Shown in pieces: positions 13,535 through 44,920 of a DNA stretch of 64,000 nucleotides; positions within the stretch are counted from its first letter, which is position 1; each line of letters opens with the position of its first letter. The notes beneath the pieces are model-generated. The model was given only the letters and a program-made list of their open reading frames with translations, was not told the origin of the DNA and searched no databases. The stretch is from Octopus sinensis. Taxonomy: Eukaryota. The stretch lies in contig NC_043005.1 of NCBI RefSeq assembly GCF_006345805.1, positions 48,546,001 through 48,610,000 on the forward strand, written 5' to 3'. Made by a program: the position numbers and the translations under genes.

Positions 13535-14223
13535 CATATCGATCCATTTCTCGACAATACTGTAACTTGCAATGAAAAGTGGATTCTGTAGAATAATAAA
13601 AAAAAAACGTTCTTCGCAGTAGTTGGACCAAGATGAAGCACCGAAAATCTTCCCTAAACGCGGGCTCTTCAAAAAGAAGGTTACGGTGACTATTTGGTGG
13701 TATACTGCAGGACTCATCTACTATAACTTCTTAAAACCCAGAAAAACCATTACTGCAGAAACATATTGCCATGAAATTGCCAATATGAATGAAAAACTGC
13801 TACTCCTCCATTCTAGACTGGTCAACAGAAGAGGGTCAATCATTCTTCATGACAATGCTCGATGACATGTTTCACTAATGACGCTCCAGAATTTGAGAGA
13901 ACTTGGCTACGAAGTTCTTCCTCGCCCAGCTTATTACCCAGAGCTTTCTCCTACCGACTATCTCTTTTTCAAGCACCTTGGTGTTTTCGCGCGAGAGAAG
14001 GAGCAAAAAATCAAACCGATACTGAAAATGCGTTCAAAGAGTTTATCAGCTCCAGAACTCCAGATTTTTATGTTACCAGAATAAACACACTCGTAACTCA
14101 TTGGCAAAAACGTGTTGATTGTAATGGTACTTACTTTGATGAATAACATTTCCACATTGTTAAAGTATAATTGCGATGAATTTCGTGTTTCAAAACGTTG
14201 CTTACTTTTTACTCAGACTGATA
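13535..14223 (+). pseudogene. Mariner transposase pseudogene, 3' half with right TIR remnant
   Basis: DPFLDNTVTCNEKWIL, KKVTVTIWW, IILHDNAR, YEVLPRPAYYPELSPTDYLFFKHL and HWQKRVDCNGTYFDE, with stops and frameshifts. Confidence 0.93.
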
Positions 14224-22671: not shown

Positions 22672-23436
22672 ATACGTAGGTAGGTAGGTAGGTAGGTAGG
22701 TAGGTATATATGCGCTATGTATGTGTATGTGTTACTGTGTGTGCATGTGTGTGTGTTCGTGTGTCTGTGAGTGAGTGCATGTATCGCATTGCGTTTCTTG
22801 TAACGGAACACTCCACAGCGAGTATTATATAATGATATCAAACGAAACGATGATTCTTACTCAAGAACACGTTTGTAAACGTGCAACCTCATATCAGCTC
22901 TGGATAGACAGTTTGTATACGTCGTAGTAAGTCACCCCAACAAATCTGCTGCAAAAAATCAATTGCTGGTTTGGGCTATGACTTACGTTAGAAAAGTGTA
23001 GAGTTTAACTGCTAATTCTAGCAGAGATAGACTGAGGAAGGAGAAAGGGAGAAGGAGAGACAGGGAGAGAATGGGGTAGGTGAGATGAGAAGACTTAATG
23101 GCTTACAACAGCGTCAAAACATGTTGCAGTTGCTCTCTTACGAACCAAATATAAAATATTAACTAGAAAAACCCATTGAAACTCTCTGTAAGCACAAATA
23201 TTCTTTATTCTTACACAGATACATGTATACGTGCACAGATACGCACTGAAACATGTGTATGTGTGTGTGTGTGTACATACATGTACATACACATATATAT
23301 GTATGTGTGTGTGTATACATACATATATATATGTATATACATATATAGATATATGTATACATATATATATATATATATGTATACAGGTATCATATATGTA
23401 TATAAATATATATATAATATATATAATATATATATA

Positions 23437-23475
<39 letters not shown>

Positions 23476-23496
23476 TCATATATATGTATATACACG

Positions 23497-23528
<32 letters not shown>

Positions 23529-23642
23529 ATATATATATAATAATATAATATATATAATATATATATAAACCGGACATCAAACATTAAGACAAGGCAAATA
23601 TCTCAAGTCATATACAATATTATTATCGGAAGAAATTCAAAA

Positions 23643-23697
23643 TCTTACAGCTGTTTCTGGGATATCCCAGAGTATTGGGATATTCCGTCATCAGAAA
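23643..23697 (-). ncRNA. Type I hammerhead ribozyme, canonical core
   Basis: TTT CTGATGA CGGAATATCCCA atactc TGGGATATCCCA GAAA CAGCT GTA AGA. Stem III is palindromic ACAGCTGT and the cleavage triplet is GUA. Confidence 0.85.
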
Positions 23698-23913
23698 CAA
23701 AAAGGGGGGAAAATATGGAAAATGGGAATGGTATATATCAATAAGATGACAACATAGAGGAAGGGAGTAGAAGAAAAGTTCAACTTTTCGAATTTACAGA
23801 AACCAGAGCATAAGTCCTTAGCTGCAATCCTGCTTCTGTTTTTCTTATCTCTTTCCATCTCCTTATTCTTTTACATAGTCACATCCTCATTTTCCATATT
23901 TTTCCCCAATTTG

Positions 23914-23967
23914 TCTCTGATGATGGAATATCCCATACTCGGGCATATCCCAGAAACAGCTGTAAGA
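23914..23967 (+). ncRNA. Type I hammerhead ribozyme, canonical core
   Basis: TCT CTGATGA TGGAATATCCC atactc GGGCATATCCCA GAAA CAGCT GTA AGA. Stem I is TCT/AGA, with predicted cleavage after 23964. Confidence 0.88.
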
Positions 23968-24348
23968 TTTTGAATTTCTTCCTATAATGATATTGTATAT
24001 GACTTGAGATGTTTGCCTCGCCTTAATGTTTGACGTCCTGTTTAACAATTATATATCTGTTGCATCGGAAATCCGCAATGGCTTCATAACTATCGTCTCG
24101 GCTATAACGTTGGAGCCCCAGTAATCCGTTACAGAACTTACCTAGCGTACTGTGGGCACACACTCGTGCTTGCATGTATAGATGATGACGATTATCATCA
24201 TTGTTGTTGTTGTTGTTATTATTATTATTCTAATTATTATTCAGTAGTCTTATTTTTATCACTGTGGTTTGTGACGCTCTTATTTTTACTGTATTGAAAG
24301 TGTTTTACGTAGAGTGTGTGCGGTGCCTAGTAGTGCTATTTTCTGTAT

Positions 24349-25732: not shown

Positions 25733-26119
25733 AGTAAATGTAAGGATAAGCAAGTTAGGCAAATCGATATACAAAATATATTAAATACATTTAATACAAA
25801 GAATGTACATATGTTTATATATAAAAAGGTCCGACTTACACAGATCATTAATCTTTTTTCTCTCAACACCTCAAATGTAAAATTCTTCCCTGAAGACGGA
25901 GGCTGGTCTTATCTGATGATGGAATCAATTTACAATCATTATCTTGGGCCGCCAAGCCCCACAGAAACAGCTGTTGGATTCTTATTCAACCCCTTTAATT
26001 CCTGGTATCATTTCTATTCTCTTTTTATATGTAAACATATGTAAATTTTTTTCTGTATTAAATGCATTTAATATTTTTTGTACATCAACTTGCCTAACTT
26101 GCTTATCCTTACATTTACT
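25733..26119 (+). mobile_element. HHR-bearing element with inverted terminal arms
   Basis: 25733-25828 (AGTAAATGTAAGGATAAGCAAGTTAGGCAA...) is the diverged reverse complement of about 26021-26119. The HHR lies between the arms. Confidence 0.85.
25887..25978 (+). ncRNA. Type I hammerhead ribozyme with long stem II
   Basis: TCC CTGAAGA [GGCT/AGCC, GGTCT/GGGCC, TGATGAT/ATCATTA helices] GAAA CAGCT GTT GGA. Palindromic stem III, triplet GUU. Confidence 0.78.
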
Positions 26120-26286
26120 CTTCTACTTGCTCAAGTTTAAATCTCTCGAGCACTATGAAGTGTATCCTATACACAGAATATCTGTCTCTCATATATATTT
26201 GTGTGTGTATGTGTGTTTGTTTGTGTGTGTGTATAGACACACACATATATGTATATATGTATATATATATATATAATATATATATA

Positions 26287-26712: not shown

Positions 26713-27010
26713 TCATTTATATGAGTAGAAAGTGTGTTTTTGCCAGTGTTTACATTTGCATGATTTTTCTATGAGTGTGTTTACTAGGGGAACCTTAGAG
26801 AAAAGAATATGGAAGAGTTCAGAATTAGAAATGTTACAAAATCTCCTGCCCTTATCAAAAGGAAAGGATACAGACAGTATGAACCAATCTAACTTGAAAA
26901 TTATATTGTTGTCTTTAAGACGCCAAACTAATTTACTTAGCCCTGTACTATGTCGTTTTTTATTATCCCTGAATGTTGAATAGTGGTTTGAAATTCTCTT
27001 GGATATATAT
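26713..27010 (-). pseudogene. C-terminal part of a Penelope-like GIY-YIG endonuclease
   Basis: KRISNHYSTFRDNKKRHSTGLSKLVWRLKDNNIIFKLDWFILSVSFPFDKGRRFCNISNSELFHIL...CKCKHWQKH resembles the PLE endonuclease C-terminus (R..NH..SF...STxLSK..W.LK...W.IL...C.LC..E...C.H..K). Confidence 0.85.
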
Positions 27011-27031
27011 ATTAGAAATAGATGTATGAAA

Positions 27032-27781
27032 TCTTGGTACAATATAAAGGACATAATGGAAATTAACATGCACAAGTCATATTTTGCAACGCCACTGCAT
27101 CACATATGAAAAATGACATCGCTTAAATGGCGGTCATTTTCAGCTTCTCACGCCCGTGCTCTTTCCGAAACTGGCACCATAACACCCTCAAGAGTTTCCG
27201 ACCCCACTTCTCTGATTTCTGTATTCATGTTCTCCTTCAGTTGCACCAGGATCTCCGGTTTGTTGACGTAAATCCTTTCTTCCAGGTATCTCCACAAGAA
27301 AAAGATCCAGGCTAGTCAAGTCTGGGGAACGTGAAGGCTTTTCAGTGTAGACCTCAGACATGGTTCCAGCAAGATGGGGCAACTACTCATACTGCAAGAG
27401 AAACAATGCATTTGCTATGGTAGTGGTTTGGAGAGAGCATAATCTCTCGCTACGACAATGTCAACTGTCCTTCATGTTCTCCATACTTTACTTGTGCGGA
27501 TTTTTCTGGTGCATCTGAAGGAGAACATCAACAGACAAATCAGAGAAGTGGTGTCTGTAACTCTTGAGGGTGTTATGGTGCAAGTTTTGGAAAGAGCACG
27601 GGCGTGCCAAACTAAAAATTGTTGTCATTTAAGCGATCTCATTTCTCACATGTGCTGTAACGGTGTTACAAAATTTGACTTGTGCATATTAATTGCCATA
27701 ATGTCCTTTCATGCATTTTTTGTACAGGTAAGGAAGTTATTAAAAACTGAAACCTATCATTGCCTTTTGGAACATACAGTA
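27032..27781. mobile_element. Fold-back Tc1/mariner (maT/rosa-like) derivative: two transposase 3' ends in inverted orientation
   Basis: The plus strand reads WFQQDGATTHTARETMHLL from 27361 and the minus strand reads PSRSPDLTSLDLFL near 27335. About 27032-27215 is the diverged reverse complement of about 27538-27727. Confidence 0.85.
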
Positions 27782-41794: not shown

Positions 41795-43024
41795 TCAGGT
41801 CATCCCATAAGTTCTGTCCGAATTTTGAATAAAGAAAACAAGTGATCAGATGTTATATTTAATTGAAATTTAATCATCAATGTACTTTCCCTGATTATCT
41901 ATGACTTCCTTCCATCTATTTACAAGTTTTTTGTAATCCCCTCAATGTAAAACTCATTTGGTTTCAAAACGAAGAAACTCTGAAATGTCAGTTTTGTCCT
42001 TCTCCTGGCTTGCAAAAGTTATGTGCCCCAAATAATTCTGTAAACTATGAAACAAATAGTCTGAAGGAGCAAGGTCGGGAGAAGAAGGTGGATGAGGAAT
42101 TTTTCCCAACCAAGCGCTTCAATCTTCTGTGATGTGATTTTTGCAGTGTGGGGTCGCACACTGTCCTGATGAAACATCGCTCCTTTTCGATTCATTAAAG
42201 CAGGTCTTTTTTTCTTCAAAACGTAGTTCAAACGCTCTAATTGCTGACAGTAGATTTGAGCATTGATAGTTGCATTAGGTGCTAACAATTCAAAGTGAAT
42301 TACTTCTTTGCAATACTACCAAATAGAGAGAAGGATCTTTTTCCATGAAGTTCCCTTCTCGGTTGTGGTTGAGCTTTTCCCTTTTACTAAGCCACTGTTG
42401 ACGACGTTTAACATTTCGAAAGAAGATCCATTTTTCGTCACCAGTCACAAGTCTATCCATGAAATGAGTTCGCGAGAATGGAGAGAACAGTAGATGTTAA
42501 CACAGGATTTTCGGTTGTTTTCGGACAATTCATGAGGCACCCATTTTCTAAGTTGCTGAAGATGACGATGAACAGTTGTATGGTTTGAACTAAGCTTCAT
42601 TGCCAATTCTTCAACTGATAATGCAGGATTTTCTTCAAGTAATGCCTCAAGGAGCTTATCATCAAACTCAACTGGAGTCCTGTTCGATCTTCATTTTCAA
42701 GGCTGAAATCTCCACTTTTTAATTTTGCAAATCATCTTCTGCAAGTTCTTTCATTCAAGCATTCTTTCCCATAAACTGAGTATATGTTTCGAGTCACTTC
42801 GGCTGCAGAGTTTCCTTTTTTGTACTCATAAAGCATTAAGTGCCTCAAATGCTCATGTTAGAAAGGGTTTTATTCTATTATTCTGTAAAATAATATTTAA
42901 TTATTTTAAATGTACACAAATGCATAAATATAATTTTTAATACCATTATACATTCTAAAATACTATTAAATTTCATTCAATTTAAAAAAAAGTAAAATCG
43001 GACAGAACTTATGGGATGACCTGA
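41795..43024 (-). mobile_element. Near-full-length mariner element (1230 bp) with pseudogenised transposase
   Basis: Perfect 27-bp TIRs TCAGGTCATCCCATAAGTTCTGTCCGA flanked by TA. Encodes HLRHLMLYEYKKGNSAAEVTRNIYSVYG, INAQIYCQQLERL and FHQDSVRPHTAK, with stops and frameshifts. Confidence 0.97.
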
Positions 43025-43762: not shown

Positions 43763-44920
43763 ATGGCCGCTCCATTGGCAGTTTGCACCAAGAGAAACAG
43801 AGATATGTGATGCGATTTCTCTGGACTGAAAGTATGTCAGGGGAGGAATTTAACATTGGACATCAGTACAATACGAGGACAGCGTAGAGGTGTGTATGAG
43901 TGAATCAAGAAGATTAAGAATTGTCTGACAAGCGTGAAGCACGAAGAGAGTGTAGAGAGAGCATGACTAAACAAGCTCGAGAGGTGGTTTGGCGAACCGA
44001 TAAGTGAACATCGACGAAGTGGCCGTGCCAAAAGAGTTTACCGAAGCGCATAAGCGTAATTGTGTGGAGATCTGTCAACGCTTAGTCGACCACTATAACG
44101 ATGAAGGCGAAGCCTTTTGGGAGAGAATAGTCACTTTGAGCAAGAATCCAGAATCTATCACAGGAATCCAGAAGGTAGAGTGTGGATTGGAAACACCCAG
44201 AATTGCCAGCGAAAAAGAAATTCAAGACTCAACATTCTACAGAAAAACTGATGCTTACCATTTTTTGGAACGCAAAAGGGCCTATTATAGTAAATTAGAA
44301 GGGATATTGGGTCTGAAGTCACCAGTGAAGGCTACAGCGAAATTGATAGCCAACAAAATGACACCACATTATTTACGTTATTTACATTATATACATTCGA
44401 CGGATATTTGTCCTTACCTTGTTTGTTGTTAACACTGTTAACAACATAATGTACATAATTCCTCATCTCTTAAATATAGAACTGTAAAATGACACCAGCA
44501 ATTCGCACCAAACGTCAAGGTCTGTTGTTAAAGCAAGTGTTATTGTTGCACGACGATACGCGTCAACGTACGGTTACTTACCCCGTGGAAACCATTAAAA
44601 CATTGGTTTTGGAATTGCTGGAACACCCTGCATACGGTCCAGATCTCGTCCTTTCTGACTATTACTTCTTTAGGGCGATCAAACATCCTTTACGAGATCG
44701 TCGATTTGCTATGGACGAAGGAGTGCAGGAAACAGTGCATAAATGTCTGTGCGACCAGTTGAAAACCTTCTCCGATGAAATATTCAAGCTTGCAGACTAC
44801 CAGAAGTGCATAAAAAAGCAAGGAGAATATATCGAAAAATGTTGTGATCGTTGAATCCCTGCTTTTGTTTTAATAAATTACTGAAATAAGAGTGCGTGTA
44901 ATTTTTGCCTTCACCTCGCA
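43763..44920 (+). pseudogene. Mariner transposase pseudogene (irritans-like), interrupted at about 44285-44487
   Basis: MAAPLAVCTK, VPKEFTEAHKRNCVEICQ..FWERIVT, VLLLHDDTRQRT, LLEHPAYGPDLVLSDYYFF and KCIKKQGEYIEK. Confidence 0.93.

What the first reader, a model, noticed from the sequence alone, without database searches (positions are those of the whole stretch)
23566..24044. Twin divergent hammerheads in a head-to-head inverted duplication
Seen: two arms of about 165 bp each carry an intact HHR pointing outward, so a transcript from either strand would contain one ribozyme and its antisense. The arms differ at many positions, yet both keep the core, stem III and most stem II pairing. Inference: the geometry resembles the two-polarity ribozyme layout of viroid-like RNAs, but here it most simply comes from an inverted PLE pseudo-LTR. 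It may cleave on both strands or self-inhibit by fold-back.
Basis: partly seen in the sequence, partly recalled or inferred. Interest (0 to 1): 0.75.

Follow-up and report, generated by a model that had tools for sequence, protein, structure and literature searches.

The report
Penelope stub with mirrored hammerheads
This is a decayed, ordinary fragment of a Penelope-type jumping gene: the same end piece sits here twice, back to back, likely because both DNA ends were copied into during one insertion, so the two self-cutting RNA motifs are likely a by-product rather than a viroid-like device.

Summary
Observation confirmed, with a larger unit than reported (23550-24150): two outward-facing type I hammerhead motifs in inverted arms, each 5.5% from the family consensus, sharing no variants. 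It is one copy of a dispersed family (2027 search candidates) whose longer copies carry a decayed GIY-YIG endonuclease with Hydra-clade motifs: a Penelope-like element (PLE). The two-arm layout is common but not propagated as a unit: 76 of 140 tail-selected copies have an inverted partner, with different junctions, none like this one. Cores decay like flanks (35 of 98 intact); a read-through RNA is predicted to trap both cores in one hairpin. Opposite-strand dual hammerheads in truncated PLEs are in print (PMC4209133), as are inverted copy plus one-sided tail (PMC3846280, PMC8557442). Small addition: across three families, 0 of 148 inverted partners of tailed arms carry a tail, suggesting paired priming at two fixed sites. 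Breakpoints pile up just after the predicted cut in two old families but not in a young third. No RNA evidence was available. The scan has noted similar PLE stubs in other genomes.

The parts
23550..23775 (-). Left arm, outer part: PLE pseudo-LTR ending at the proximal 3' end (family position 657), which runs into the (TA)n flank
   Evidence: blastn to working family reference, ref 437-657, 92%
23777..23833 (-). Left arm, inner part (ref 335-391); ~45 nt of element deleted between the two parts
23646..23694 (-). Type I minimal hammerhead motif, left; predicted cut between 23646 and 23645
   Evidence: core scan; catalytic fold about 15 kcal/mol above the monomer MFE
23831..23833 (.). Head-to-head junction of the arms, 3-nt overlap (microhomology)
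   Evidence: bridged by public contigs
23831..24056 (+). Right arm, pseudo-LTR part (ref 403-657) with internal deletions near ref 446-474
23917..23964 (+). Type I minimal hammerhead motif, right; predicted cut between 23964 and 23965; one stem II mismatch
24057..24150 (+). One-sided PLE tail (ref 658-751); the last ~46 nt of the family's ~140-nt tail are missing here
23390..23566 (.). (TA)n/(CA)n microsatellite flank, the family's preferred target
   Evidence: sequence; 70 of 91 distal ends abut such repeats against 6% background

Best explanation
This is a dead, 5'-truncated insertion of a Penelope-like retrotransposon whose two arms were likely made in one insertion event, with each cut end of a TA-repeat target likely priming its own cDNA, so the twin hammerheads are likely a by-product. 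Shown: both arms are the family's 3' end; one stops at a proximal site, the other carries a tail; they meet head-to-head at a 3-nt overlap; about half of tailed copies look like this, each with its own junction; the arms here have decayed independently. Inferred: the RT-endonuclease nicks both strands, one end primes at the distal start site and the other at the proximal site, the two cDNAs stop at variable points and are joined by microhomology; two hammerheads result only when both cDNAs run past the ribozyme (14 of 140 copies). Predicted: if transcribed through, the RNA folds into a ~200-bp hairpin that traps the ribozyme, so it would be double-stranded RNA, not a two-way cutter.
For: Family and layout: 76 of 140 inverted; junctions differ; 14 of 140 span both ribozyme positions. 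PLE identity: GIY-YIG remnant upstream in long copies, E=1e-13 and 4e-9 to the C-terminus of an intact 960-aa ORF in a sister family; an intact sister element shows inverted pLTR + pLTR + tail + ORF + pLTR + tail. Paired start sites: inverted partners of tailed arms carry a tail in 0 of 76, 0 of 41 and 0 of 31 loci of three families; of 30 copies picked by the proximal end, 19 have a tailed partner, 1 an untailed one, 1 a 17-nt remnant, 9 none (read by eye; two loci overlap the tail sample). The tailed arm is the shorter one in 34 of 66 (family 1) and 14 of 30 (young family 3), which a snap-back copy of the tailed arm cannot give. Arms of one locus share more variants than arms of different loci (180 against 92 expected, 47 loci). 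Neutral decay: 5.5% each arm, 0 shared variants here; core 7.7% against flanks 5.9-9.5%, 35 of 98 arms intact, 1 of 16 two-arm loci with both intact. Fold: -279 kcal/mol, core bases paired with p~1.0 on either strand. Literature: PMC4209133, PMC8557442, PMC3846280, PMC11167929 (both strands cut and extended; two RT start sites define the tail).
Against: No reverse transcriptase physically linked to this family was recovered; the Pfam GIY-YIG hit is below the curated cut-off (17.9 against 22.6 bits, 1 of 3 peptides) and the intact sister ORFs hit no Pfam family (0 of 2). Arm lengths are coupled more than independent stops predict (18 of 66 near-symmetric against 7.4; 9 of 30 against 3.2), which snap-back at palindromes also explains. 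In vitro the anole element showed no strand difference in start site and no homology to the target (PMC11167929), unlike the strict pairing and TA-ending sites seen here. Later deletions at the palindrome centre may have moved junctions; this copy has two such deletions. Transcription is untested.
Confidence: 0.9

Rival explanations
1. Same element, but the inverted arm was made by self-priming: one cDNA folded back on a short palindrome and copied itself, and later deletions at the hairpin centre made the arms unequal.
For: Near-symmetric joints exceed chance and several sit on palindromes; partners never carry a tail, as a fold-back that ends at the TA-like proximal site would give; self-priming was proposed from such palindromes in PMC3846280.
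Against: In about half of loci, including the young family and this copy (right arm starts at 403, left at 335), the untailed arm reaches further 5' than the tailed arm.
Confidence: 0.25
2. A propagated non-autonomous unit or viroid-like RNA with ribozymes in both polarities that cut both strands.
For: Both cores are intact here, and at two more loci picked by likeness to the window (L002, L003).
Against: No shared junction; no excess of twin intact cores; each strand carries one ribozyme preceded by its antisense, predicted fully paired; the motif needs a second sense copy to build stem III (PMC4209133).
Confidence: 0.02
3. The copy was co-opted by the host as a long hairpin RNA (editing or small-RNA substrate) and is kept by selection.
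For: A ~200-bp hairpin is predicted on both strands.
Against: The arms diverged additively with no shared variants (11% arm to arm), as neutral decay predicts; such hairpins are half of a large family; no host exon was evident among 215 stop-to-stop frames in the window (by eye).
Confidence: 0.04

Closest known systems
Dual opposite-strand minimal hammerheads of truncated PLEs (Cervera and de la Pena 2014, PMC4209133)
   Same: Two minimal type I motifs 100-700 bp apart on opposite strands, short helix I, long helix II, palindromic helix III needing a dimer; read there as truncated PLEs.
   Different: Reported for Schistosoma; here stem II is closed by Y.A with the G-C pair one step in, and junction statistics are added.
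EN+ PLE insertion with inverted 5'-truncated copy and one-sided tail (PMC3846280; PMC8557442)
   Same: Head-to-head inverted pLTR, tail on one end only, microhomology or palindrome at the joint, (TA)n target.
   Different: Tail is ~140 nt here (about 75 and 150 nt in the two sister families) against 30-40 bp described; no target-site duplication can be read in the microsatellite.
Hydra clade of C-terminal EN+ PLEs (PMC8557442, section 11)
   Same: CxCX5C linker, CxxC and CxH motifs in the endonuclease remnant, hammerhead in the pLTR, (TA)n insertion.
   Different: RT motifs (DKT, RWK) could not be read in this family; no phylogeny was built.
Poseidon element of the anole (PMC11167929)
   Same: Two fixed RT start sites downstream of the hammerhead define the tail; both strands are cut and extended.
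   Different: There start sites showed no strand bias in vitro; here partners are strictly one tailed, one untailed.
Viroid-like RNAs with two-polarity ribozymes; non-LTR retrozymes
   Same: A hammerhead on each strand (geometry only); type I motif shared with retrozymes.
   Different: Not a propagated unit, no tandem direct repeat, the two motifs are inverted copies of one sequence. The viroid layout is recalled; the retrozyme definition is from 10.64898/2026.07.22.740005.

Membership tests
EN+ Penelope-like element | GIY-YIG endonuclease 5' of the pLTR, same strand | tested here: met
   Remnants in long copies L139, L140, L143; Pfam GIY-YIG E=0.0038, below cut-off; blastp to intact sister ORF E=1e-13. 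Not in the window copy, which is truncated.
EN+ Penelope-like element | PLE-type reverse transcriptase in the same ORF | tested here: inconclusive
   Six long copies end or break before the RT. An RT piece in L139 lies 3' of the tail behind a microsatellite and is not shown to belong; its relatives have intact ORFs but other pLTRs.
EN+ Penelope-like element | pLTR with hammerhead | tested here: met
EN+ Penelope-like element | 5' truncation, adjacent inverted copy, optional one-sided tail | tested here: met
   76 of 140; 0 of 76 partners tailed; tail longer than the described 30-40 bp
EN+ Penelope-like element | Target-site duplication | tested here: inconclusive
   Left end lies in (TA)n and the right end is deleted
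Hydra clade | CxCX5C linker; CxxC and CxH around the EN E/N residues | tested here: met
   Read in L140 and L139 translations against PMC8557442 section 11
Hydra clade | (TA)n targeting | tested here: met
   70 of 91 distal ends against 6% background
Hydra clade | DKT and RWK motifs in RT; CCHH absent; placement in RT tree | not tested
   RT of this family not recovered; DKT seen only in sister families
Type I minimal hammerhead | Core C3-A9, G12-A14, A15.1-U16.1, H17 | tested here: met
   Both arms
Type I minimal hammerhead | Helices I, II and palindromic helix III | tested here: met
   4-bp helix I, 10-bp interrupted helix II, -13.1 kcal/mol dimer helix III; helix I differs in sequence yet pairs in the two sister families
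Type I minimal hammerhead | G10.1-C11.1 pair directly at the core | tested here: not met
   C.A in 61 and U-A in 19 arms; the G-C pair is one step in
Type I minimal hammerhead | Self-cleavage | not testable with these tools
   Needs assay; catalytic monomer fold lies 8-15 kcal/mol above the MFE; no Rfam hit
Viroid-like two-polarity RNA | One unit propagated with both ribozymes | tested here: not met
   75 distinct junction pairs in 76 loci, none like the window's
Viroid-like two-polarity RNA | Circular RNA of both polarities | not testable with these tools
   No RNA holder on record, contigs only
Non-LTR retrozyme | Tandem direct repeats each with a hammerhead | tested here: not met
   Arms are inverted; no direct copy nearby

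The most novel reading that the evidence does not exclude
The genome's PLE stubs record ribozyme cutting in living cells: both target ends are primed on one RNA at two fixed start sites, and in two of three families many cDNAs run off an RNA end made by hammerhead cleavage, leaving ribozyme-less mini-hairpins. This would be genomic evidence for in vivo PLE hammerhead activity, which RNA reads have not shown (PMC11167929).
Probability: 0.15. Interest if true: 0.5.

Novelty: new member of a known kind. Interest (0 to 1): 0.17.

Why it matters
As a locus it matters little: a dead transposon stub of a published layout. The family-level counts are of some use for an open question, how PLEs build inverted insertions: the strict pairing of one tailed with one untailed arm (0 of 148 exceptions from the tail side, 1 of 20 from the other) and the freely varying arm lengths give a sharp prediction for the existing in vitro PLE assay, and this genome holds young intact elements on which to test it.

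Tried and rejected
Rfam on the window (best 150 of 325 rows shown, microsatellite-driven miRNA hits) and on the 541-nt stretch: no hammerhead family. Random 200 kb (20 stretches): 0 copies of either family, so the family is sparse; not used for a copy number. RNA: no RNA holder listed; laid runs were contigs with guessed type; no evidence either way on expression. Search for this family's RT by walking upstream: failed. Pfam on intact sister ORFs: 0 of 2. Hypothesis that breakpoints mark the ribozyme cut: window 0..+29 was chosen after seeing family 1 (35 ends, hazard ratio 3.5, p=6.5e-8; 1.7, p=0.063 once near-symmetric loci are dropped; single-arm copies 1.6, p=0.2), repeated in family 2 (11 ends, ratio 2.8, p=0.007), failed in young family 3 (5 of 60 ends, hazard 0.0034 against 0.0043, p=0.75). 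Ends are spread over 30 nt, old subfamilies vary just there, and some family-2 ends were deletions or microsatellite over-extensions, so it is demoted to the novel case. Palindrome supply alone peaks at 541-560, not in the pile-up. Gene conversion between the window's arms: rejected (0 shared variants). Literature searches found no paper on strict tailed/untailed pairing or on truncation at the PLE cut site; the library lacks most subscription papers and I read no supplements (those of PMC8557442 might list this family). One search used a host name that was my guess from recall. Sequence look-up in earlier findings was blank.

Full report
1. Observation. The window lies at G000:C9:48546001-48610000 in a 2.72-Gb, microsatellite-rich genome. 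An inverted repeat spans 23566-24044. A core scan of both strands finds three hammerhead-like motifs in 64 kb: - 23646-23694, + 23917-23964 and + 25913-25975. The first two are the twin motifs. Both keep the core, a one-pair stem III with the palindromic loop, a 4-bp stem I and a long stem II. Rfam does not call them. The junction between the arms is bridged by public contigs.

2. What it belongs to. The stretch has 2027 first-look candidates in the genome, 40 scored. With a working reference built in scripts from the copies (797 nt; core at 518, predicted cut after 565, proximal 3' end 657, distal 3' end 797), the window copy reads: left arm ref 437-657 plus 335-391 on -, right arm ref 403-751 on +, meeting at a 3-nt overlap. 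Long copies continue upstream into an asparagine-rich stretch and a decayed GIY-YIG domain with CxCX5C, CxxC and CxH motifs (Pfam E=0.0038, under cut-off; E=1e-13 to the end of an intact 960-aa ORF of a sister family). These motifs and (TA)n targeting define the Hydra clade of PLEs (PMC8557442 section 11). The RT of this family was not recovered. An intact young sister element (L162) shows the full plan: inverted pLTR ending at a proximal site, pLTR, tail, ORF, pLTR, tail.

3. One-off or propagated? Copies were sampled by tail, blind to inversion: the first 92 of 355 exact matches to a tail motif (one duplicate dropped) gave 48 of 91 with an adjacent inverted arm; 49 more (59 held, 10 dropped as duplicates or self) brought it to 76 of 140. 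There are 75 distinct junction coordinate pairs, the one repeated pair differs in letters, and none resembles the window's. Both arms reach past the ribozyme in 14 of 140. The layout is routine and rebuilt at each insertion.

4. Selection on the ribozymes? Among 98 arms from 166 loci not chosen on the ribozyme, core substitutions are 88 of 1141 (7.7%, of which 34 are one subfamily U4C change), flanks 9.5%, or 5.9% without polymorphic columns; 35 of 98 cores are intact, and both in 1 of 16 two-arm loci. Among 179 tail- or end-selected loci only the window itself has twin intact cores; two more (L002, L003) came from the search by likeness. The window's arms are each 5.5% from the reference, 11% apart, with no shared variant; both cores surviving has probability about 0.21. 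Stem I differs in sequence but pairs in the sister families, so the motif was maintained in the active masters, not in the copies.

5. Could the twin layout work? PLE minimal hammerheads need a second sense copy to form helix III and cut weakly in vitro (PMC4209133). Here the catalytic monomer fold is 8 and 15 kcal/mol above the MFE, and the dimer helix gives -13.1. A transcript through the unit has one sense ribozyme, preceded by its antisense; folding gives a ~200-bp hairpin of -279 (+) or -285 (-) kcal/mol with every core base paired. Prediction: no cutting. Expression is untested.

6. How it arose. Inverted partners of tailed arms never carry a tail: 0 of 76, 0 of 41 in the family at window 25733-26196 (87 loci) and 0 of 31 in the young family (first 50 of 204 matches). 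From the other side, 19 of 20 sizeable partners of untailed arms are tailed (30 of 38 matches). Either arm may be the longer. Arms of one locus share variants beyond chance (180 against 92). With the in vitro finding that a PLE protein cuts and extends both strands and starts at two internal sites that bound the tail (PMC11167929), the best inference is two cDNAs, one from each start site, joined by microhomology. Against it: arm lengths are coupled and joints favour palindromes, which fits self-priming (PMC3846280); later deletions blur old junctions.

7. A lead that half failed. 5' ends pile up within 30 nt after the predicted cut in this family and in family 2 but not in family 3, whose junctions are the cleanest; the effect leans on near-symmetric loci. 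Earlier notes of this scan on other genomes put such pile-ups just upstream of the ribozyme, at the RNA start. I checked this partly: family 2 has a sharp stop at an initiator-like TCATTCC about 137 nt before the cut, with a G in front in about 4 of 11 such ends (by eye); family 1 has a looser group at ref 252-274. The cleavage reading stays at about 15%.

8. Known or new. Dual minimal hammerheads 100-700 bp apart on opposite strands, tied to truncated PLEs, are stated in PMC4209133. Head-to-head is called the most frequent inverted arrangement in PMC3846280; inverted copy plus one-sided tail is the typical structure in PMC8557442. Seen of each paper: PMC4209133 and PMC11167929, parts 1-2 of 4 of the text; PMC8557442, passages and section 11; PMC3846280, passages; 10.64898/2026.07.22.740005, part 1 of 5; all others, search listings only; no supplements. 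The two-polarity viroid layout and hammerhead numbering are from my own knowledge plus PMC4209133.

9. Verdict. Real, ordinary, a new member of a known kind. It works like a standard inverted PLE insertion; filing under EN+ PLE is well supported, under Hydra likely but lacking the RT test. Interest 0.17.

Noticed in passing
window 25733-26196: A second, older PLE family with the same plan: tailed arm on + (25844-26196) with a hammerhead, short inverted arm on - (25733-25844) without one; 1402 candidates genome-wide.
   Followed up: yes
window ~25890-25975 (+): That family's hammerhead has two nested cores: an outer CUGAAGA that forms stems I and II, and an inner decayed C(C/U)GAUGA inside loop II that resembles family 1's core and stem II start. 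Origin unexplained.
   Followed up: partly
family 2, about 137 nt before the predicted cut (L290, L311, L353, L363 and others): Sharp 5' stop at an initiator-like TCATTCC, sometimes with an extra G: likely the element's transcription start.
   Followed up: partly
L162 (G000:C7:70355000-70362000), L156, L157, L161: Young PLEs with open 906-960-aa RT + GIY-YIG frames that hit no Pfam family (L156 and L162 tested); L162 has inverted pLTR + pLTR + ORF + pLTR. RT search gave 5198 candidates, so such elements are abundant here.
   Followed up: partly
family 3 (L398-L447): 5' ends group at -170..-110 (21 of 60) and -40..-10 (11 of 60) relative to the cut, the latter inside stem II of the ribozyme.
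   Followed up: no
family 1, ref 519: 34 of 98 arms read CCGAUGA (U4C), almost all in the older subfamily; CpG decay may restore U. Whether a master carried U4C is open.
   Followed up: partly
window 26713-27099 (-): A further decayed GIY-YIG-like peptide of PLE type (by eye).
   Followed up: no
window 13623-14146, 42019-42690, 44004-44854: Fragments resembling Tc1/mariner transposases (by eye from recall).
   Followed up: no
L139:6914-7627 and other long copies: Asparagine/threonine-rich, (AAT)n-derived stretch upstream of the endonuclease, like the N-rich inserts described in rotifer PLEs (PMC3846280).
   Followed up: no
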